In this document: in pieces, positions 2,595 to 40,073 of the stretch
Layout: each line of letters begins with the position of its first letter
Numbering within the stretch: position 1 is the first letter of the stretch
DNA from: an uncultured Candidatus Saccharibacteria bacterium
GTDB lineage: Bacteria; Patescibacteriota; Minisyncoccia; Phycocordibacterales; UBA5272
Length of the DNA stretch: 64,000 nt
Direction of reading: 5' to 3'
NCBI GenBank assembly: GCA_964538815.1
Contig: CAZIHL010000001.1
Coordinates: 79,034-143,033, forward strand
The notes under the pieces: model-generated
What the model was told of the DNA's origin: nothing
The model's input: the letters and a program-made list of their open reading frames with translations, nothing else
Databases searched by the model: none
Translations under genes and position numbers: made by a program

Positions 2595-5500
2595 ATGGAG
2601 TTTTCTTTTTTGCGGGTTAGTATTTTTGTTTTTAAATTAGAGCTATTATTTTTTATGTCTAAAACAAAAATTATTAATGAAGGTCTTTTCGTGGCCAATT
2701 TACCTAAAAAGACTTTTCAAAATTTTAGAAAGCCTTTTATCGAGTTACCAAATTTAGTAGAAAATCAAATAATTTCTTTTAAAAAACTTTTAGAAGAAGA
2801 TTTAGAATCGATTTTAAAAGAATTAAATCCAATCAAAGATTACACAGAAAAAAAATTTGAATTAGAAATTATATCTTTTGAGCTTGTCGAACCTAAATAT
2901 TCAGAAGAGTATACAAAAGAAAATAAATTGACCTTTGAAGCATCTATCAGAGCTAAAGTTTTGTTACGAAATAAAATTTTAGGTACAGAAAAAGAACAAG
3001 AAATATTTTTAGCGTCATTACCTATGATGACTGTACACGGGACATTCATAATTAATGGTGTGGAGAGAGTAATTATTCCACAACTTGCAAGAAGTGCCGG
3101 GGAGTTTTTTGATTGCGAAGAAATAAATGGAAAGAAATATTTCTCAGCAAAAATTGTACCAAATCGTGGAGCTTGGGTAGAAATTATCACAGACGATGAT
3201 AACGACATGTTTGTAAAAATAGATAAAAAAAGAAAATTTTCTGTAGTTTCATTGCTTAGAGCTATCGGTTTTTCTACAGATAAGGATATAGAAAATGCTT
3301 TTAGTGGTAAAGATTTAGCTAAAGCTTATATTATGAATTTAGTAGCTAAAGATACTATAAAAACAGCAGACGAGGCTTATATAGATGTTTATAAAAAATT
3401 AAGAGACGGAGATCTTGCTACTGTAGAAAATGCTAAATCTTATATATTATCCTTATTTGGAAAAGAGAGATATGATCTATCTCCAATAGGTAGAATGAGA
3501 TTTAATAAAAGATTTAATATCGAAGGGGACGCAAAAGAAATGAAAAGGATGACTCTTTCAAAAGAAGATATAGTTTTAATTATAAATCATTTAATTGAAT
3601 TAAATAATAATCCAGAAGCAGAAGGAGACGATATAGACCATTTAGCTTCAAGAAGAGTTCGTTTTGTAGGTGAAATGTTAGGAATGAAAATCAAAAAAGG
3701 AATGCTTCAAGTAAAAAGATATATTCAAGAAAAAATGTCAGTTATAGATACTGATACTACTTTACCTGTAACTATTATAAATCAAAGATCACTTCAGGCG
3801 AGAATTAAAGAATTCTTTACAGTGAATCAGCTTTCTCAACTTATGAATCAAGAAAATCTTCTTGCTGAAATAGAGAGTTTAAGAACCTTATCAGCTCTTG
3901 GCCCAGGAGGACTTTCAAAAGATAGAGCTGGATTTGAAGTGCGCGATGTACATACTTCACATTATGGTAGAGTTTGTCCTATTCAAACTCCAGATGGAGC
4001 AAATGTAGGTCTTATTTTAAGATTGGCAGCTTACGCTAAAATAAATGAATTTGGAATAATTGAAACTCCTTATGTGAAAGTTAAGAATGGTAAAATTACA
4101 AAAGAGATAGCATATTTAAATGCTTTACAAGAAGAAAATACTGTTATTGCTCACGCTGGAATTAATTATGATGAAACTGGAAATATAAAAGATCAATTTG
4201 TTCAAGCAAGAAAAAAAGGACATCCAGCAATAGTTTCTAAAGATGAAGTCGAATATGTGGATGTGTCTACAAATCAAGCATATTCAATTGCTACAAGTAT
4301 GATTCCATTTTTAGAACACGATGATGCTGCTCGTGCATCAATGGGTTCAAATATGCAAAGACAAACAGTACCACTAATTTTGGGCGAAGCACCATATGTT
4401 TCAACAGGAATGGAGAGTGAAGCAGCAAGACATATTGGAAGACTAGTGCTTGCAGAAGAAGCCGGAGAAGTAAAATATGTTGATGCTAATAAAATTACAG
4501 TATCAGGAAGTAATGGTAAAGATAAAACTTATACTTTAGTAAACTTTTCAAGAACAAATAACTTTACAGTTTTCTATCAAAGACCAATTGTAAATGTTGG
4601 TGATAAAGTTAAAAAAGGTCAAATTATAGCCGATTCTTCATCTACACGAGGAGGACAGATTTCTATAGGGCACAATGTTCGTGTAGCATTTATGAGTTGG
4701 AACGGAGCAAATTATGAAGATGCTATTATTATCTCAGAGAGGTTAGTAAGACAAAAAAAGTTTTCTTCTATTCATGTTGAAGAACTTGTATGTAATGTTC
4801 GTGATACAAAACTTGGAGCAGAAGTTACAACACACGATATTCCAAATGTAGGAGAAGCTAAATTAAAAAATCTTGACGAAGAAGGAATAATCAGAATCGG
4901 TGCAGACGTAAGAGCTGGCGATATTCTTGTTGGAAAGATTACTCCAAAAGGAGAAACTGAACTTACTCCAGAAGAAAGATTGCTAAGAAGTATTTTTGGT
5001 GAAAAAATACGTGATGTAAAAGATACTTCTCTAAGACTTGATAATGGAAAAAGAGGAAGAGTAATTGGTATTAAAGTTTTCTCAAGAGAAAGAGGAGATA
5101 CACTTGAAAGTGGTGTTATTAAAAGAATTCATATTGAAGTAGCACAACTTCGTGATATTTCAGTTGGAGATAAATTAGCCGGAAGACATGGAAACAAAGG
5201 TGTTATCTCAAGAATTCTTCCAATTGAAGAAATGCCATTTACAGCCGATGGAGAACCGATTGATATTATTTTGACTCCACTTGGTATCCCATCAAGAATG
5301 AATATTGGACAGATTTTAGAAATGCATCTCGGTCTTGCAGCACATACACTTGGTTATCAAGCTATGGTACCAGTGTTTGCTGGGTCAACAGATGAAGAAA
5401 TCAGAGACGAACTTGTAAGAGCTGGTTATGATGAATCTGGAACTGTAGACTTATTTGATGGAAGAACAGGAGAAAAATTTGCAGATAAGGTAGCAATCGG

Positions 5501-35169: not shown

Positions 35170-35242
35170 GCCAATATAGCTCAGTTGGTAGAGCACATCC
35201 ATGGTAAGGATGAGGTCATCAGTTCGATCCTGATTATTGGCT
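35170..35242 (+). tRNA. tRNA-Thr(GGU)
   Basis: Acceptor GCCAATA/TATTGGC, anticodon stem CATCC/GGATG with loop ATGGTAA, T-loop TTCGATC. Confidence 0.85.
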
Positions 35243-35375
35243 CCAGTTTTGTAGAAAAAGACACAGAAGACCCAAGAGAGTGGGACGCGCTCCGCTCGGC
35301 AACCCCGAAAGAAAAATGTCTCTTGCTTTTTTGATTTGCGCAGGTTTTCGCTTCGGGATTTTTCGGCGGCGGCTA
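35241..35375. repeat. left arm of a 135-bp terminal inverted repeat (IR-L)
   Basis: Reverse complement of 38331..38466 with only about 4 mismatches. Begins within the last nucleotides of the tRNA-Thr (ctccag). Confidence 0.85.
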
Positions 35376-35404
35376 TGGACAAAAACGACTAAAACTGCTA
35401 AAAT
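35376..35404 (+). promoter_or_regulatory. putative sigma70 promoter TGGACA-N17-TAAAAT giving a near-leaderless transcript
   Basis: Hexamers and spacing read directly from the sequence. The ATG at 35414 lies about 3-5 nt from the predicted TSS. Confidence 0.45.
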
Positions 35405-35413
35405 TCATTTCAT

Positions 35414-38323
35414 ATGGAGAAGCCACATTTTGAAGCACGATTTGGACAAACAAAGAAGACGCTTGAATCTTCGCGAGCGGAAATAAATGAGTTTTTGAAA
35501 CAAGAAACTCTCGACGAACGAGATAGAGTTCGCCTCACTCGTGTTTTGCAATTAGTAGAACGCTATCAACCGGAACGAGAAGTTGAAGAACCAAAAGTTA
35601 ATAAGTGGCGAAGCTATCTCGAAAGCGTGTATCGTTTTTTACCGAGTCGAAAAAAAACGCAAAAACCAATTGAAAATATTTCCGCTCGCTCATATCTACT
35701 TGCTGAAAAAACAATCGCTTCACTTCGGGAACTTCAACATGTAGATTTCCAACTTGAACAAGAAAGTGGATTTTCTGAAGAAGAAGTTTTAAATCAAGAA
35801 CGACCGAGTAAAGTTGAAAGAGAGGAAACATTAGACACTTCTCTTACACTTGAATACGAAAAGAAAAATTGGGGTGTAGAACGAGTTTGTCTTGATGGTG
35901 TGCAAAATCACTTGCCATCAGACTCAAAAGGTGAGCATGTTTGGGTAAGATGTTTAGTTGGTGGCAAGTGGGTTTCTTTGACAGAAGCAAAAGACAAAAA
36001 AGATCAAATAGAAGCGGTGAGATTTGCAGACGATGGCGTTGGTTTTGATGTAAAAAATCTAGTACTTTTATATTCCACAAAAGCGGAGGAAAAAGAATCT
36101 CGCGGACAATTTGGAGAAGGTATGAAAATGATGGCCGCCGCGGCTCTGCGGGAGGGCTTGGAGCCGGAAATGGAATCTCAAGACTGGCGCGCAAAGCCAA
36201 CACCAAAAGAAGTAGAGGTTTTTGATACACGACATCAAAAAGAACGAGTTATTCAACAACTCTCGTTTAAAGTTGACTATTTAGCTGGCGAGCCAATGAT
36301 TGGTTCTCGCACTACTTTTCATAAGCCAACCGAAGCGTTTGTTGACGAGTTAATGCAAATTGAAAAGAAAGTTTTGGCTTTGCGCGAAAATTATCGTCCC
36401 GTTTTTGTGGGAAGTACGGGCGAAATTGTAGATCGTGAATCAGGAAGTCTATTTGTAAAAGGAATTTATGTTAGAGGTAAGAAAACTTTGTTTTCTTACA
36501 ACTTTGAAGATGTTGAAACAAACCGAGATCGCAACAGAATTGTTTCAGAAGGTTTAGAAAGAAGAATTGCAAAAATAGTTCAAGAAATTTCCGATAAACG
36601 ATTGGTTAAAACAATGCTTCAAAAAAGTATTGTGGAACCGGACGCAGTTGAAAGTTCTTTTTATGATCTAAGAGCCGAACATCCAACAGTATGGATTGAG
36701 GGATTTTATGAAGCATTTGGAAAAGATGCAGTTCTGGATACAGGTTTCAAAATCCCCGATACTTTCAAAGATAAGCCGTTGAACAAAGTTAAAGTGCCGT
36801 CTGGCATGCAGAGTTTGCTTTTGCGAGCGGGAGTAAAGACCGACCAAGAGGTCACACCTGATTTTTGGGAGGAAACAATCCCGACTTCCTTAACTCTTGA
36901 ATACGGAAAAGATATTTGGAATGAGGAAAGAATTTTACTTGACGCGGTGCAAAATCATTTACCGCACGATTCCGGCGGTTTAAATATCGGTTTGCGTTTC
37001 AAAACTAAAGATGGCAAGTGGCACTCATTTAGAGATTTACCAGATATTAAAGACGAAGAGGTAGAGTCCGTAAAAATTTATGATGATGGACGCGGATATG
37101 ACTCTCGTTTGCTCGGTTTTTTCTACTCTACAAAAGGAGAGGGTGAAAGCACCGGAAAATTTGGCGAGGGTTTGAAAATGTTGTGCATAGCTTCACTACG
37201 CAAGGGTATTGATATGACTTTGCGTTCTCAAAATTGGTCATCGAAACCGAGAGCGTTACGACAAGAAGTTGATGGAAAGCAAATTGATCAGCTTGTTTTT
37301 GATGTAATTCACGCTGTTAAAAAACAAGAAATGGACGATGATGAGGGGCTTTATCAAAGCAGTTCAACTACATTTTCAAACCCGACGCCGGAATTATTGC
37401 AAGAATTTCGCCAAATTAACAAAAAAGTTCTCGCAATAGAAAGAGCAAAACCAGTAGAAAGAACTTCAAATGGAGATGTACTTTCGCTTGATGGAGGAAT
37501 GGTTTATGTGCGAGAACTTTTGATTCCAGGAGACCACAATTTGCTTTTCACTTATCATTTGCCGAGATTGGAAATTAAAAATCGAGACCGAAGTTTTGTT
37601 GACCAACAAGAACTTACTCCGGCTATCGCAGGGGTATGGTCGGAGACCGAAAATCCTGAAGTTATCAAAAGTTTTCTTTTCAAAGCAAATTTGGAAGCGC
37701 AAAAAGGTGGCGGAAAAGATAAGGTCGAATTTTCGATGGATTTTACCCCCAAAGATACTGAAAACTGGAAAAAGATTTTCGAGGAAGTTTTTGGAAAAGA
37801 TACCGCTATTCGCGATATGCGCTCGGAAGATTTTGACGCTATGCAACAAAATATGCATGTCGGTTTGGAACTTGTATCTTTTCCAAGCGCAACATATCAA
37901 GTTTTGAAAAGACTTGGATTGCCAACATATGAATCTCGTTTATCTGAAATGACCGATGTGGAGCATATTCCTAACGAAGAGCTAACAGCAGAAGAAAAAG
38001 CGTTATTGGAGGTTTTAACAGCGATTGATGAATATTTACCGAACAATAGGCCGTCTGAGATTAAAGTCTATAAGCGCAAAACAGATGGTCAAAAAGTTGC
38101 AGCTGGTTTTGCTGATGGTGTAAATATTCATCTTTTGCGCGAAATTCTATCTGATTTTACTCACGCGGCAGATGTGTATGTTCACGAGAAAACGCATCAT
38201 AATACCGGTGGCGCACAAGACGCAAGTTCAGATTTCAGAAATTACCTAAGTTTTGCGCTGGGCAAGATGGCGTTAGATCAATTGAAAAAAGTTCGACCAG
38301 ATTTAGTAAAGACAGAGAGTTAA
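35414..38323 (+). CDS. 969-aa protein with two tandem GHKL (Bergerat-fold) ATPase modules and a C-terminal HExxH motif
   Basis: A duplicated module of about 350 aa. Each copy has an N-box-like LD[GA]VQNHLP.D, a G1 box DDG[VR]G[FY]D and a G2 box G[QK]FGEG[ML]K (Hsp90/MORC-like). C-terminal VYVHEKTHH. Foreign codon usage (CGN arginine, higher GC). Confidence 0.7.
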   Translation: MEKPHFEARFGQTKKTLESSRAEINEFLKQETLDERDRVRLTRVLQLVERYQPEREVEEPKVNKWRSYLESVYRFLPSRKKTQKPIENISARSYLLAEKTIASLRELQHVDFQLEQESGFSEEEVLNQERPSKVEREETLDTSLTLEYEKKNWGVERVCLDGVQNHLPSDSKGEHVWVRCLVGGKWVSLTEAKDKKDQIEAVRFADDGVGFDVKNLVLLYSTKAEEKESRGQFGEGMKMMAAAALREGLEPEMESQDWRAKPTPKEVEVFDTRHQKERVIQQLSFKVDYLAGEPMIGSRTTFHKPTEAFVDELMQIEKKVLALRENYRPVFVGSTGEIVDRESGSLFVKGIYVRGKKTLFSYNFEDVETNRDRNRIVSEGLERRIAKIVQEISDKRLVKTMLQKSIVEPDAVESSFYDLRAEHPTVWIEGFYEAFGKDAVLDTGFKIPDTFKDKPLNKVKVPSGMQSLLLRAGVKTDQEVTPDFWEETIPTSLTLEYGKDIWNEERILLDAVQNHLPHDSGGLNIGLRFKTKDGKWHSFRDLPDIKDEEVESVKIYDDGRGYDSRLLGFFYSTKGEGESTGKFGEGLKMLCIASLRKGIDMTLRSQNWSSKPRALRQEVDGKQIDQLVFDVIHAVKKQEMDDDEGLYQSSSTTFSNPTPELLQEFRQINKKVLAIERAKPVERTSNGDVLSLDGGMVYVRELLIPGDHNLLFTYHLPRLEIKNRDRSFVDQQELTPAIAGVWSETENPEVIKSFLFKANLEAQKGGGKDKVEFSMDFTPKDTENWKKIFEEVFGKDTAIRDMRSEDFDAMQQNMHVGLELVSFPSATYQVLKRLGLPTYESRLSEMTDVEHIPNEELTAEEKALLEVLTAIDEYLPNNRPSEIKVYKRKTDGQKVAAGFADGVNIHLLREILSDFTHAADVYVHEKTHHNTGGAQDASSDFRNYLSFALGKMALDQLKKVRPDLVKTES

Positions 38324-38330
38324 TTTCTTG

Positions 38331-38466
38331 ATAGCCGTCGCCGAAAAATCCCGAAGCGAAAGCCCGCGTAAATCAAAAAAGCAAGAGACATTTTTCTTTC
38401 GGGGTTGCCGAGCGGAGCGCGTCCCACTCTCTTGGGTCTTCTGTGTCTTTTTCTACAAAACTGGAG
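38331..38466. repeat. right arm of the 135-bp terminal inverted repeat (IR-R)
   Basis: Reverse complement of IR-L. Ends with ctggag (revcomp ctccag). Confidence 0.85.
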
Positions 38467-38530
38467 TGTCTTTATGACTTCGCTCGAACTTACTTTATCA
38501 AAAATTCCTAATGAATCCAAATGCGGACTC

Positions 38531-38574
38531 GGTTTTGCCAAACTATTTTTCTGGGGAAAAGGATTGGCAAAACC
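38531..38574 (+). other. stable hairpin (11-bp stem ggttttgccaa/ttggcaaaacc, 22-nt loop)
   Basis: Perfect complementarity seen directly. Followed by a GC-rich segment and a T8 run at 38636..38643, possibly a terminator for read-through from the 969-aa gene. Confidence 0.4.
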
Positions 38575-38705
38575 TCGGCTGTTTTCCCGCCCGCAGGAGG
38601 GGTCTGGGGAGGAATCCGCATGGGCTGGGCTTCCGTTTTTTTTGTGGCTAAAATGGCTTAAAAACAAAGGTTTTTTAGAGTTAAACTAGGTTATAGCGAT
38701 TTGGC

Positions 38706-38734
38706 TTGACAAAATAGACTAGATATGCTATACT
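38706..38734 (+). promoter_or_regulatory. consensus sigma70 promoter TTGACA-N17-TATACT
   Basis: Perfect -35 hexamer, 17-nt spacer, near-consensus -10. Predicted TSS about 38741. Confidence 0.6.
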
Positions 38735-38954
38735 TAACGCATAATTTGAGGCGGTAAAAATACTCCTTAAATTATGTAAATTGTTCTTTGATAAGCGAGA
38801 TTAGTGAAAATTTCTTTTGCTCTACTACTTCGTGAGTAGCATAGTATGTATCTCAATTTGAGGTATCTAGTGTGCTACTCATGTTGAGGAGCCCTTGATG
38901 CGAGGAACGTATCATTAAAAAAAAATTTTTGATATGATATTATGGTCTAACGAG

Positions 38955-39698
38955 ATGGGCGAGAGGGGGCGAGGAGCCTGGCTGTTATTTATAAAGGATG
39001 ACGAAGTCATCGTCTTCCGCGGCCAGAACATCCCCGGTGTGGTCGTCGTGCGCGGCACGGACTACACCAAGAACGGGAAGTGGTCTCACACCACCTACCG
39101 CCTCCAGCTTGTCCCTGGAGTTCGCCAGATAGCCGGATACTCCGGCTGGGAAACCGGTCGGTTCGTCGAAGGCCTCGGCTCCGCCGTTGGCTGCGCAACG
39201 CCCGACACGTGGGCGGACACGGCCAAGGCTCTTGGGGTTTCGGTCCCGAGCGTGATGGAGTTCCTGCGGAGCTGGCGTCCGAAAGCCGCGGCGAAGCTGG
39301 ACGAAGTCGAGCAGGCGTTGGCCGATCTCGAGGAAGCCTCCTCTCAACAGGAGACCGACTCGGTGATCGTTACCGTCTCCTTCGGTTCGCCGACCAACCG
39401 CGCCATCAGCGATGGCTACTGGGTGGCGCCGAAGGCGATCCCGGGCTACAATGCGGAGATCCACCTGAAGGATCGCTCGCAGGGCTGGAACGAGGGGAAC
39501 ATCGAGGTTGTCGGAATCTCCGGCACCATCCTCTCGGTCAAGCACTCGGCCGGAATGCACGGCGGTTACTACGCCGTGTCGGTCGCGGTGATACCCGGAA
39601 CGGAGACCGAGATCCCGCCCTTCGAGACCAGCAAGCCTTGTAACGGTGGTAACACCGTGTTGGGCGATGCCCTCCGTAAGGCAGGGCTCCGCAGCTAG
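38955..39698 (+). CDS. hypothetical protein encoded by a very high-GC, GC3-rich foreign CDS
   Basis: A 744-bp frame with GC3 almost entirely G/C and balanced amino-acid composition. The alternative frames are Arg/Gly-rich junk. The ATG at 38955 marks the switch from AT-rich to GC-rich sequence. The in-frame upstream ATG at 38934 is an alternative start. Confidence 0.6.
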   Translation: MGERGRGAWLLFIKDDEVIVFRGQNIPGVVVVRGTDYTKNGKWSHTTYRLQLVPGVRQIAGYSGWETGRFVEGLGSAVGCATPDTWADTAKALGVSVPSVMEFLRSWRPKAAAKLDEVEQALADLEEASSQQETDSVIVTVSFGSPTNRAISDGYWVAPKAIPGYNAEIHLKDRSQGWNEGNIEVVGISGTILSVKHSAGMHGGYYAVSVAVIPGTETEIPPFETSKPCNGGNTVLGDALRKAGLRS

Positions 39699-39747
39699 TC
39701 TCGTATCGTATTTCCAGTTTGAGAGGACTGGGTTAACAAAACCTCTC

Positions 39748-39799
39748 TCTGTCGATAAGTGTGTTACTTATCCTGATGAGTCCGAAAGGACGAAACAGA
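39748..39799 (+). ncRNA. hammerhead ribozyme, type III topology (open stem III)
   Basis: tctGUC cleavage site, then stem I GATAAG-tgtgtta-CTTATC, then CUGAUGA, then stem II GTCC-GAAA-GGAC, then GAA, then ACAGA pairing with UCUGU. Every conserved core position is present. Confidence 0.8.
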
Positions 39800-39931
39800 T
39801 TGTACCTTGAGAAAATTTAGTTCTCTCGTGAGTAGCGCAATGGATGTCTTAAAAAGATTTCTAGTGCTGTCGGATACTTCGGACCAATTACGAGAGGGGA
39901 AATAAAATAAAAATAAATTTATTGTATAGAA

Positions 39932-39968: not shown

Positions 39969-39999
39969 TCTCACAATTTTGTTAAAATGTGCTTTAAGG

Positions 40000-40073
40000 C
40001 CATCTTAGCTTAGTTGGTAGAGCACTTCACTCGTAACGAAGAGGTCTCGAGTTCGATCCTCGGAGATGGCTCA
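40000..40073 (+). tRNA. tRNA-Thr(CGU)
   Basis: Acceptor GCCATCT/AGATGGC, anticodon loop CTCGTAA, T-arm TCGAG-TTCGATC-CTCGG. One A:C mismatch at the base of the anticodon stem. Confidence 0.8.

What the first reader, a model, noticed from the sequence alone, without database searches (positions are those of the whole stretch)
35414..38323. 969-aa protein with tandem duplicated GHKL/Bergerat-fold ATPase modules and a C-terminal HExxH motif
The protein contains two modules of about 350 aa that align to each other: TSLTLEYEKKNWGVERVCLDGVQNHLPSD...RFADDGVGFD...YSTKAEEKESRGQFGEGMKMMAAAALREG and TSLTLEYGKDIWNEERILLDAVQNHLPHD...IYDDGRGYD...YSTKGEGESTGKFGEGLKMLCIASLRKG. The conserved pieces correspond to the N-box, G1 box (DxGxG) and G2 box (GxxGxG, close to the Hsp90/MORC GQFGVGF/GQYGNGLK) of GHKL ATPases. 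Each ATPase module is followed by a second region that is also duplicated. The C-terminus has VYVHEKTHH, an HExxH zinc-metallopeptidase-like signature. MORC/Hsp90-like GHKL ATPases occur in many prokaryotic conflict systems. An intramolecular pair of GHKL domains fused to a putative metallopeptidase motif, on a mobile-looking cassette, is not a recognised housekeeping protein. It is a candidate novel defence or conflict effector.
Basis: partly seen in the sequence, partly recalled or inferred. Interest (0 to 1): 0.85.

Follow-up and report, generated by a model that had tools for sequence, protein, structure and literature searches.

The report
Tandem GHKL ATPase fused to zincin protease
The gene is real and encodes an uncharacterised enzyme with two Hsp90/MORC-type ATPase modules and a small zinc-protease domain, carried on a repeat-bounded mobile cassette in an ultra-small (CPR-type) bacterium, so it is most likely an ATP-switched protease used in conflicts between cells and mobile DNA.

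Summary

The family has no name and no PADLOC match. It occurs with one module (phages, DPANN archaea), two (CPR, Clostridia) or three (an Alkaliphilus plasmid), always ahead of the same zincin domain.

The gene has no conserved operon. It sits in a GC-rich island after tRNA-Thr and is bracketed by a 143-nt inverted repeat. Most close relatives are also bracketed by long inverted repeats. A related structured repeat brackets at least 46 other cassettes that carry restriction-modification, GmrSD and other accessory genes.

My best reading is an ATP-gated protease acting as a conflict or accessory effector. The substrate and any defence phenotype are untested. I rate it a new variant of known kinds, with interest 0.65.

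The parts
35170..35245 (+). tRNA-Thr(GGU). Its 3' end overlaps the outer end of the left repeat arm.
   Evidence: ARAGORN; Rfam tRNA, 67.4 bits
35241..35383 (.). Left arm of the 143-nt inverted repeat that brackets the gene
   Evidence: the repeat finder I1, 95% complementary. A 45-mer occurs only twice in the window, with 0 expected by chance. The arm shares a 55-nt block with the repeat of relatives L074/L004 (z 7.2).
35376..35404 (+). Sigma-70-like promoter (TGGACA-17-TAAAAT with TG) 9 nt before the ATG. This is a consensus match only.
35414..38323 (+). 969-aa GHKL x2 - zincin protein (whole ORF including the stop codon)
35414..35812 (+). N-terminal helical region (aa 1-133), no recognised family
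   Evidence: AF2 secondary structure H4-28, H35-51, H61-73, H89-115; no Pfam hit
35813..36862 (+). Module 1 (aa 134-483): a GHKL ATP-binding domain, then a beta-rich transducer-like part, then a helical part. N-box N165 is at 35906-35908, DxGxG at 36029-36043 and GQFGEGMK at 36104-36127.
   Evidence: phrog_6077 E 2.2e-32
36863..37948 (+). Module 2 (aa 484-845), a duplicate of module 1. N514 is at 36953-36955, DxGxG at 37082-37096 and GKFGEGLK at 37154-37177.
37949..38320 (+). C-terminal minimal zincin metallopeptidase domain (aa 846-969). HEKTH is at 38183-38197 and D936 at 38219-38221.
38324..38466 (.). Right arm of the 143-nt inverted repeat. It starts at the base after the stop codon.
38521..38636 (+). 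'X' unit: a two-hairpin GC-rich repeat. Elsewhere it forms the inverted-repeat arms around this same gene (L077-79) and around at least 46 other cassettes. Here it is a single copy between the cassette and the next element.
   Evidence: CM R1, 112.9 bits
38934..39698 (+). Neighbouring element, not part of the protein: a 63% GC ORF (254 aa) from a widespread, unannotated family
39746..39801 (+). Type III hammerhead ribozyme-like motif just after the GC-rich ORF
   Evidence: Rfam RF00008, 44.2 bits (gathering score 48.5), E 1.8e-7. The motif is conserved next to homologous ORFs in 5 other contigs.
39999..40072 (+). tRNA-Thr(CGU), the right border of the GC-rich island

Best explanation
The gene encodes a member of an unnamed family of ATP-gated metalloproteases.

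Shown:
- An N-terminal helical region is followed by two tandem modules. Each module is a Bergerat-fold (GHKL) ATP-binding domain followed by a transducer-like part.
- Both modules keep all nucleotide-binding motifs.
- The protein ends in a ~115-aa minimal zincin domain with an HExxH...D metal site.
- Relatives carry one, two or three such modules ahead of the same zincin domain.
- The gene is accessory cargo. It is horizontally mobile, bracketed by long inverted repeats, sits next to a tRNA, and has relatives in phages and plasmids.

Inferred:
- As in MORC, MutL, type II topoisomerases and Hsp90, ATP binding makes GHKL modules pair and close. Here the pairing would occur within one chain; in one-module relatives it would occur between chains.
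- This nucleotide-driven closure captures a substrate and positions or unmasks the C-terminal zincin domain, which then cleaves a protein.
- The fold's nearest relatives suggest that the substrate is DNA, a DNA-bound protein or a client protein.
- The biological role is most likely in conflict between the cell and mobile DNA (defence, counter-defence or element maintenance). In the nearest relatives the gene is controlled by a small XRE repressor encoded just upstream.
For: - Duplication: E 5e-56.
- Motif conservation in both modules and in the zincin site across 57 relatives that range from 89% to 29% identity.
- Pfam HATPase_c is hit by 35 of 47 relatives and HATPase_c_3 by 30 of 47.
- Zincin domain: Wss1 9.3, minigluzincins 8.3-8.7, Spartan 8.0.
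- The zincin domain profile finds 664 clusters. Those inspected nearly always contain a GHKL module. One carries an added RNA polymerase alpha-CTD, and there are weak SprT-like and DUF6782 hits.
- One-module homologues occur in DPANN archaea and in Moorella phage MTATph1, where the gene lies among helicase, dUTPase and SSB genes. A three-module homologue lies on Alkaliphilus plasmid pB6464 near Dcm, DUF262 and Cas3.
- Purifying selection: differences fall 86/48/332 by codon position.
- Mobility: GC contrast and inverted repeats; att-like direct repeats at a tRNA in L010; a large serine recombinase next to the cassette in L073.
- Cassettes bounded by the related X repeat carry type I/II/III restriction-modification genes, GmrSD, Mrr and HNH.
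- The XRE partner is shared with 8 other such cassettes.
Against: - Nothing here tests ATP hydrolysis, zinc binding or proteolysis.
- The acidic residue four positions before the N-box Asn is Asp (D161, D510), not the usual Glu, so ATP turnover may be slow or absent.
- The window protein's own Pfam score (21 bits) is below the HATPase_c cut-off.
- The relative arrangement of the two modules is uncertain (pTM 0.58). Three-module relatives do not fit a simple pairwise closure.
- No PADLOC model matches.
- Neighbourhoods are not consistently defence islands. Many are ordinary genes, and cargo of the repeat-bounded cassettes also includes metabolic and resistance-type genes.
Confidence: 0.5

Rival explanations
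1. It is a DNA-protein crosslink or DNA-bound-protein protease, working like Wss1/SPRTN. The GHKL modules clamp DNA as MORC or MutL do, and the zincin domain degrades proteins stuck on DNA. This would serve either as repair or to strip proteins from invading DNA. It is a specific version of the main model.
Against: No WLM or SprT Pfam hit for this protein. The third ligand is Asp after 7 residues, not the His of Wss1/SprT. Minigluzincins and M48 proteases score almost as well. No DNA-binding domain is recognisable in the window protein. The patchy, horizontally transferred distribution does not suit a repair housekeeping gene.
Confidence: 0.2
2. It is an ImmA/IrrE-like anti-repressor. The zincin domain cleaves the XRE repressor encoded just upstream when the GHKL modules sense a signal, and this switches the mobile cassette or element on.
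For: A 65-aa XRE HTH gene ends 4 nt before the gene in L004-6 and L073-76, next to a large serine recombinase in L073. XRE plus zincin pairs are a known theme (own knowledge: ImmR/ImmA and the COG2856-Xre pairs).
Confidence: 0.12
3. It is a chaperone-type protein quality-control factor, like Hsp90 or sacsin. Repeated Hsp90-like modules hold client proteins and the zincin domain trims them.
For: Hsp90, TRAP1 and GRP94 are among the top fold matches. There is a weak NCBIfam sacsin ATP-binding domain hit. Repeated Hsp90-like modules in one chain recall sacsin (own knowledge).
Against: The sacsin model scores 16.9 bits against a cut-off of 50. No Hsp90 middle or C-terminal domain was detected. The mobile, sporadic distribution is not that of a core chaperone.
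Confidence: 0.08
4. The protein is the transposase or recombinase of the 3.2-kb element bounded by the 143-nt inverted repeats.
For: It is the only ORF between the repeats. Close relatives are also bracketed.
Against: The related X repeat brackets at least 46 cassettes with unrelated cargo and none with this protein. Four close relatives sit in their genomes without any repeats (L001, L009, L011, L012). No nuclease, DDE, HUH, serine or tyrosine recombinase fold was found. No target-site duplication was seen.
Confidence: 0.03

Closest known systems
MORC / paraMORC ATPases (GHKL plus S5-like transducer; Iyer et al. 2008, PMC2292703)
   Different: There are two (or 1-3) ATPase modules in one chain. 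There are no CW, coiled-coil, helicase or nuclease partners. The acidic residue before the N-box Asn is Asp, not Glu. A zincin domain is fused at the C-terminus, and the MORC paper mentions no peptidase or protease.
Wss1/WLM and SPRTN/SprT DNA-dependent metalloproteases
   Different: No Pfam WLM or SprT match. The third ligand is an Asp 7-8 residues after the second His, in a conserved TG-x(1-2)-D-A...FR motif. There are no SUMO, ubiquitin or p97 motifs. The domain is fused to GHKL modules.
Minigluzincins (proabylysin, projannalysin, selecase) and M48 (HtpX, BepA)
   Different: Those use a Glu as third ligand and are stand-alone or membrane-bound proteases. None is linked to an ATPase.
Sacsin (three repeating regions, each with an Hsp90-like ATPase domain; own knowledge)
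   Same: Several GHKL-type modules are repeated in tandem within one polypeptide. There is a weak hit to the NCBIfam sacsin ATP-binding model.
   Different: The score is far below the cut-off (16.9 against 50). Sacsin is eukaryotic and very large, and it ends in DnaJ and HEPN domains, not a protease.
AAA+ proteases (FtsH, Lon), compared by function only
   Same: An ATPase and a protease in one chain. FtsH also uses an HExxH zincin.
   Different: A completely different ATPase fold and assembly (hexameric unfoldase ring against a dimerising clamp). There is no homology.
[quoted passage not shown]
   Same: Accessory or defence genes are bracketed by long, imperfect inverted repeats with no transposase inside. 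Some lie next to tRNA genes.
   Different: Those repeats were 26-65 bp, unique to each unit, and had 8-bp target duplications. Here the arms are 140-490 nt and belong to one shared, modular, hairpin-containing family in many genomes. The two arms of a pair are nearly identical to each other, and no target duplication was seen.

Membership tests
GHKL (Bergerat-fold) ATPase superfamily | Motif I: N-box Asn with an acidic residue four positions upstream | tested here: met
   D161-x3-N165 and D510-x3-N514. N165, D161 and N514 are invariant and D510 is at least 90% conserved. The acid is Asp, not the usual Glu.
GHKL (Bergerat-fold) ATPase superfamily | G1 box DxGxG and G2 box GxxGxG (ATP lid) | tested here: met
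   D206/G208/G210 and G231/G234/G236 in module 1; D557/G559/G561 and G581/G584/G586 in module 2. All are invariant or at least 90% conserved.
GHKL (Bergerat-fold) ATPase superfamily | Profile match to HATPase_c or HATPase_c_3 above Pfam's cut-off | tested here: inconclusive
   The window protein scores 21 bits against a cut-off of 26.4. Relatives P0054 (29.6 against 25) and P0080 (28.9 against 26.4) pass. 35 and 30 of 47 relatives hit at E<=0.01.
GHKL (Bergerat-fold) ATPase superfamily | Bergerat alpha/beta sandwich fold | tested here: met
MORC family | GHKL followed by an S5-fold transducer with a conserved basic residue that reaches the gamma-phosphate | tested here: inconclusive
   204-224 residues align to MORC2, ParE and MutL, which is more than the ATP-binding domain. 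K349 and the NRDR loops are conserved. The S5 topology could not be inspected because no coordinates were available.
MutL | C-terminal dimerisation/endonuclease domain | tested here: not met
   No MutL_C or DNA_mis_repair hit. The C-terminus is a zincin domain.
Type II topoisomerase B subunit | Toprim domain after the transducer | tested here: not met
   No Toprim hit in Pfam. The structural matches stop after the ATPase region.
Hsp90 / sacsin | Hsp90 middle and C-terminal domains, or the sacsin ATP-binding model above its cut-off | tested here: not met
   NF047352 scores 16.9 bits against a cut-off of 50. No HSP90 Pfam hit.
Zincin metallopeptidases | HExxH on an active-site helix next to a mixed beta-sheet, plus a third metal ligand | tested here: met
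WLM/Wss1 or SprT-like | Family profile match, and His as the third ligand after the HExxH | tested here: not met
   No WLM or SprT hit for the window protein or for 46 of 47 relatives. One distant relative gives SprT-like at E 0.004. The third ligand position holds Asp.
Metzincins | HExxHxxGxxH/D spacing and a Met-turn | tested here: not met
   The family motif is HExxHxxTGxxD, one residue longer. In the window it is HEKTHHNTGGAQD. The Met-turn was not assessable.
ImmA/IrrE (Peptidase_M78) | Family profile match; partner XRE repressor | tested here: not met
Known anti-phage defence systems (PADLOC-DB 2.0) | Match to any component model | tested here: not met
   0 families at E<=1.
Classical insertion sequence or transposon | Terminal inverted repeats, a transposase and a target-site duplication | tested here: not met
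   Inverted repeats are present. No transposase fold was found. No direct duplication was seen at the ends in 12 distinct repeat pairs with usable flanks on both sides.

The most novel reading that the evidence does not exclude
The GHKL-zincin family could be a new type of ATP-dependent protease, in which a dimerising GHKL clamp rather than an AAA+ ring gates a metalloprotease. It would travel as cargo of a so far undescribed gene-cassette system of CPR bacteria. In that system, 140-490-nt modular repeats built around two conserved hairpins bracket single accessory genes or operons in inverted orientation. The two arms of each cassette would be regenerated from one template or kept identical by conversion, and the cassettes would accumulate next to tRNA genes.
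Probability: 0.25. Interest if true: 0.85.

Novelty: new variant of a known kind. Interest (0 to 1): 0.65.

Why it matters
GHKL ATPases (MORC, MutL, Hsp90, topoisomerases) are known as clamps that act on DNA or client proteins. A fusion to a protease is not mentioned in the prokaryotic MORC survey I checked, and four literature searches found no description of one. A family with 1-3 GHKL modules feeding one zincin domain would add a new way of coupling ATP to proteolysis, and a candidate conflict effector shared by phages, plasmids, DPANN archaea and CPR bacteria. These organisms have tiny genomes, where every accessory gene is informative.

The repeat-bounded cassettes found on the way may explain how such genes move between CPR genomes that otherwise show few recognisable mobile elements.

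Tried and rejected
- Sequence searches against PDB chains with the single protein and with the family profile found nothing useful: 0 hits, and one hit at E 1.9.
- PADLOC gave no hit. NCBIfam gave only a sub-threshold sacsin domain.
- The precomputed Pfam label PF25856 (MPN635_N) is only a faint or weak hit and was not reproduced by my own scan.
- A Cmr2 helical-domain hit (E 6e-4) appeared in 1 of 47 relatives, so I treat it as chance.
- I considered pairing of the two repeat arms in the mRNA. It is disfavoured because the promoter-like site lies at the inner edge of the left arm.
- The X unit on its own folds no better than shuffled sequence (z -0.07). Its hairpin 1 is nevertheless supported by compensatory changes.
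- I considered that the sequence just outside the right arm is an inverted tRNA-Thr 3' half. This is not supported (z 1.4).
- Assembly artefact as the source of the repeats is rejected. The arms differ at 7 positions clustered at the inner end, and the same architecture recurs in independent JGI, ENA, NCBI and Logan assemblies.
- The transposase reading is rejected (see rivals).
- Literature searches for GHKL with Patescibacteria, sacsin with bacterial tandem HATPase, GHKL with SprT, and hammerhead with CPR found no description of this family.
Full report
**1. The observation.** The internal duplication is far beyond chance. Residues ~137-484 align with ~486-840 at 36% identity over 362 columns, E 5e-56. 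The duplication covers the ATP-binding part and also the ~200 residues after it. The gene is under purifying selection: against an 84%-identical relative (L004) the 466 differences fall 86/48/332 on codon positions 1/2/3.

**2. What the protein is.** A search of 5.8 billion proteins gave 93 relatives from 89% to 28% identity. None has an informative name. Those with a taxon label come from Patescibacteria (CPR), apart from one Micrarchaeota archaeon.

- In an alignment of 57 full-length relatives the GHKL motifs are conserved in both modules. N165, D206xG208xG210 and G231xFGEGxK238 are invariant in module 1. N514, G559xG561 and G581xxGEG586 are invariant in module 2, and D557 is at least 90% conserved. 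The acidic residue four positions before each Asn is Asp (D161, D510) rather than the canonical Glu.
- The window protein's own HATPase_c score is sub-threshold (21 against 26.4 bits). Relatives do pass the curated cut-offs, and 35 and 30 of 47 family members hit HATPase_c and HATPase_c_3 respectively.
- An AlphaFold2 model built on the family alignment has mean pLDDT 84.4.
- Foldseek against the PDB puts MORC4 first (E 5.5e-5), followed by Hsp90 N-terminal domains, GRP94 and MutL/PMS1.

**4. The family.**

- A profile of the zincin domain finds 664 clusters among 1.84 billion representatives.
- Of 10 proteins inspected, five show HATPase hits, one adds an RNA polymerase alpha-CTD, one adds Sel1 repeats, and two give weak SprT-like or DUF6782 (putative metallopeptidase) hits.
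- Proteins of ~540 aa from DPANN archaea have one module plus the same zincin domain.
- So does a 446-aa protein of Moorella phage MTATph1, which lies among helicase, dUTPase and SSB genes.
- phrog_6077 (unknown function) matches both modules of the window protein at E 2.2e-32.
- A 1104-aa protein on Alkaliphilus plasmid pB6464 has three modules before the zincin domain. It lies near Dcm, DUF262 and Cas3 genes.
- Genome scans place the family in CPR, Clostridia, Omnitrophota, Melainabacteria, Elusimicrobiota, Desulfofundulus and DPANN.
- There is no PADLOC match and no sequence relative in the PDB.

**5. Context in the window.** The host DNA is ~26-30% GC and encodes RNase R, S16, TrmD and RF2 around the locus. 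Between tRNA-Thr(GGU) (35170-35245) and tRNA-Thr(CGU) (39999-40072) lies a 40-48% GC island.

The gene is bracketed precisely by a 143-nt inverted repeat. The left arm is 35241-35383 and starts in the last bases of the tRNA. The right arm is 38324-38466 and starts one base after the stop codon. The arms are 95% complementary. A promoter-like site lies at the inner edge of the left arm. In a Logan assembly the segment is a separate 3,092-bp contig that ends inside both arms.

**6. Context elsewhere.** Neighbouring genes differ in almost every locus, and there is no conserved operon. The one exception is a small downstream ORF in the Clostridia clade.

In the closest clade (77-89% amino-acid identity), DNA similarity to the window stops at the ORF ends. 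Even so, the gene is again bracketed by long inverted repeats:

- 233 nt in L074, at least 99 nt in L073, 55 nt in L004 and 39 nt in L010, all around an XRE-HTH gene plus the GHKL gene;
- 142 nt at 98.6% in L077-79;
- 69 nt at 80% in L080.

L009, L011, L012 and L001 have no repeats, and there the gene's GC matches the host. In L010 the island lies between ~65-nt direct repeats that include a tRNA 3' end. In L073 a large serine recombinase is adjacent.

**7. The repeats belong to a wider system.** The arms in L077-79 are homologous to a unit I call X, which is present once in the window at 38521-38636.

- I counted 46 pairs of X in inverted orientation, always + then -, 1.4-5.9 kb apart and often at contig ends.
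- The 112 enclosed ORFs are very diverse, with 85 singletons. They include type I, II, IIG and III methyltransferases, Mrr, ResIII, GmrSD and HNH. They also include ABC transporter, APH, PPDK-like, ArsP, HAD and NUDIX proteins.
- Eight cassettes start with an XRE gene homologous to the one upstream of the GHKL gene, with E down to 1e-17.
- The two arms of a pair are much more alike (median 96.9%) than arms from different loci (median 58%, ungapped).
- No target duplication was visible.
- X contains two hairpins. Hairpin 1 shows compensatory changes at five stem positions in three or more versions. Hairpin 2 was fixed by the way I searched, so it could not be tested.
- The window's own arms are not detected by the X covariance model. 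They do share a 55-nt block with the L074 repeat (z 7.2). By eye, their inner tail (...TTTTCGGCGGCGGCTA) resembles the tails of X units.
- tRNA-Ser genes are over-represented near X loci, at 16 of 33 tRNAs found.
[quoted passage not shown] That report describes unit-specific 26-65-bp repeats with 8-bp target duplications.

**8. Mechanism.**

Shown:
- the domain composition;
- conservation of the catalytic motifs;
- variation in module number;
- purifying selection;
- the accessory, mobile status of the gene.

Inferred from what GHKL enzymes generally do:
- ATP-driven pairing and closure of the modules;
- gating of the zincin domain by that closure.

The substrate is unknown. A DNA-bound protein (Wss1/SPRTN-like), the XRE partner (ImmA-like) and client proteins (Hsp90-like) are ranked as rivals. 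A transposase role is rejected.

**9. Novelty and scores.** Both domains are known kinds. The architecture of GHKL x1-3 plus a Wss1-like zincin domain, and the family itself, appear undescribed in the literature I could search. I file it as a new variant of a known kind, with interest 0.65. The repeat-bounded cassette system is the more unusual by-product and deserves its own follow-up.

Noticed in passing
window 38521-38636 (X unit); L077 1930-2071 and 5015-5156; L088-L205: A ~115-210-nt modular GC-rich repeat with two hairpins (loops contain TCTGGGG). It occurs in at least 120 metagenome contigs and in 46 cases as an inverted pair bracketing 1.4-5.9 kb of varied cargo (restriction-modification, GmrSD, XRE-led genes, resistance-type enzymes). 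The arms of a pair are ~97% identical, against ~58% between loci. No target duplication was seen. This looks like an undescribed cassette system.
   Followed up: partly
window 38934-39698: A 254-aa ORF at 63% GC in a 28% GC genome. It has 224+ homologues (55-86% identity, usually ~345 aa; this copy has an internal deletion near the C-terminus). There are no Pfam, PHROG or PADLOC hits. Many contigs are only 1.1-2 kb long, and there is 86-89% nucleotide identity to marine (TARA) and other contigs. Third-position-biased substitutions (8/5/50) show that it is a real coding gene.
   Followed up: partly
window 39746-39801; L083 1483-1537, L084 1397-1451, L085 1415-1469, L081 3664-3718, L082 954-1008: A type III hammerhead ribozyme-like motif (44-48 bits, just under Rfam's gathering score of 48.5) is consistently linked to the GC-rich ORF. 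It lies ~50 nt downstream in four loci and ~280 nt upstream in two. This may be a ribozyme-processed transcript. I found no literature on hammerheads in CPR.
   Followed up: partly
window 38706-38734 and 38829-38885 / 39826-39880: A near-consensus promoter (TTGACA-17-TATACT) lies between X and the GC-rich ORF and is conserved in L083-85. A hairpin-like motif (CGTGAGTAGC...CTAGTG.GCTACTCA) is repeated before and after the ORF.
   Followed up: no
L004 7800-7997; L073 2800-2997; L074 465-662; L010 ~3100-3250: A 65-aa XRE-family HTH gene ends 4 nt before the GHKL-zincin gene in the closest relatives. It is frameshifted in L010 and absent from the window. Homologous XRE genes head 8 other X-bounded cassettes with unrelated partner genes.
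   Followed up: yes
L017-L020 (Clostridia relatives), ORF immediately downstream of the GHKL-zincin gene: A conserved 114-167-aa protein (motif ...EVLxVLxALGxxYxxKxPxxVxxxL...) follows the gene, overlapping it or within 15 nt, in all four Clostridia loci. This is the only conserved partner seen outside the XRE gene.
   Followed up: no
L088, L101, L104, L111, L146, L149, L162 and others: tRNA-Ser genes, especially Ser(GGA), recur about 1.8 kb from an X unit, or directly next to it in L146. tRNA-Ser makes up 16 of the 33 tRNAs found in 60 X-bearing loci. This suggests a preferred integration region.
   Followed up: no
L010 2613-2807: A 64-aa GIY-YIG-like ORF starts inside the ~65-nt direct repeat (tRNA 3' end plus downstream sequence) that bounds the island carrying the GHKL cassette. 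Only its first ~45 nt are repeated at the other end.
   Followed up: no
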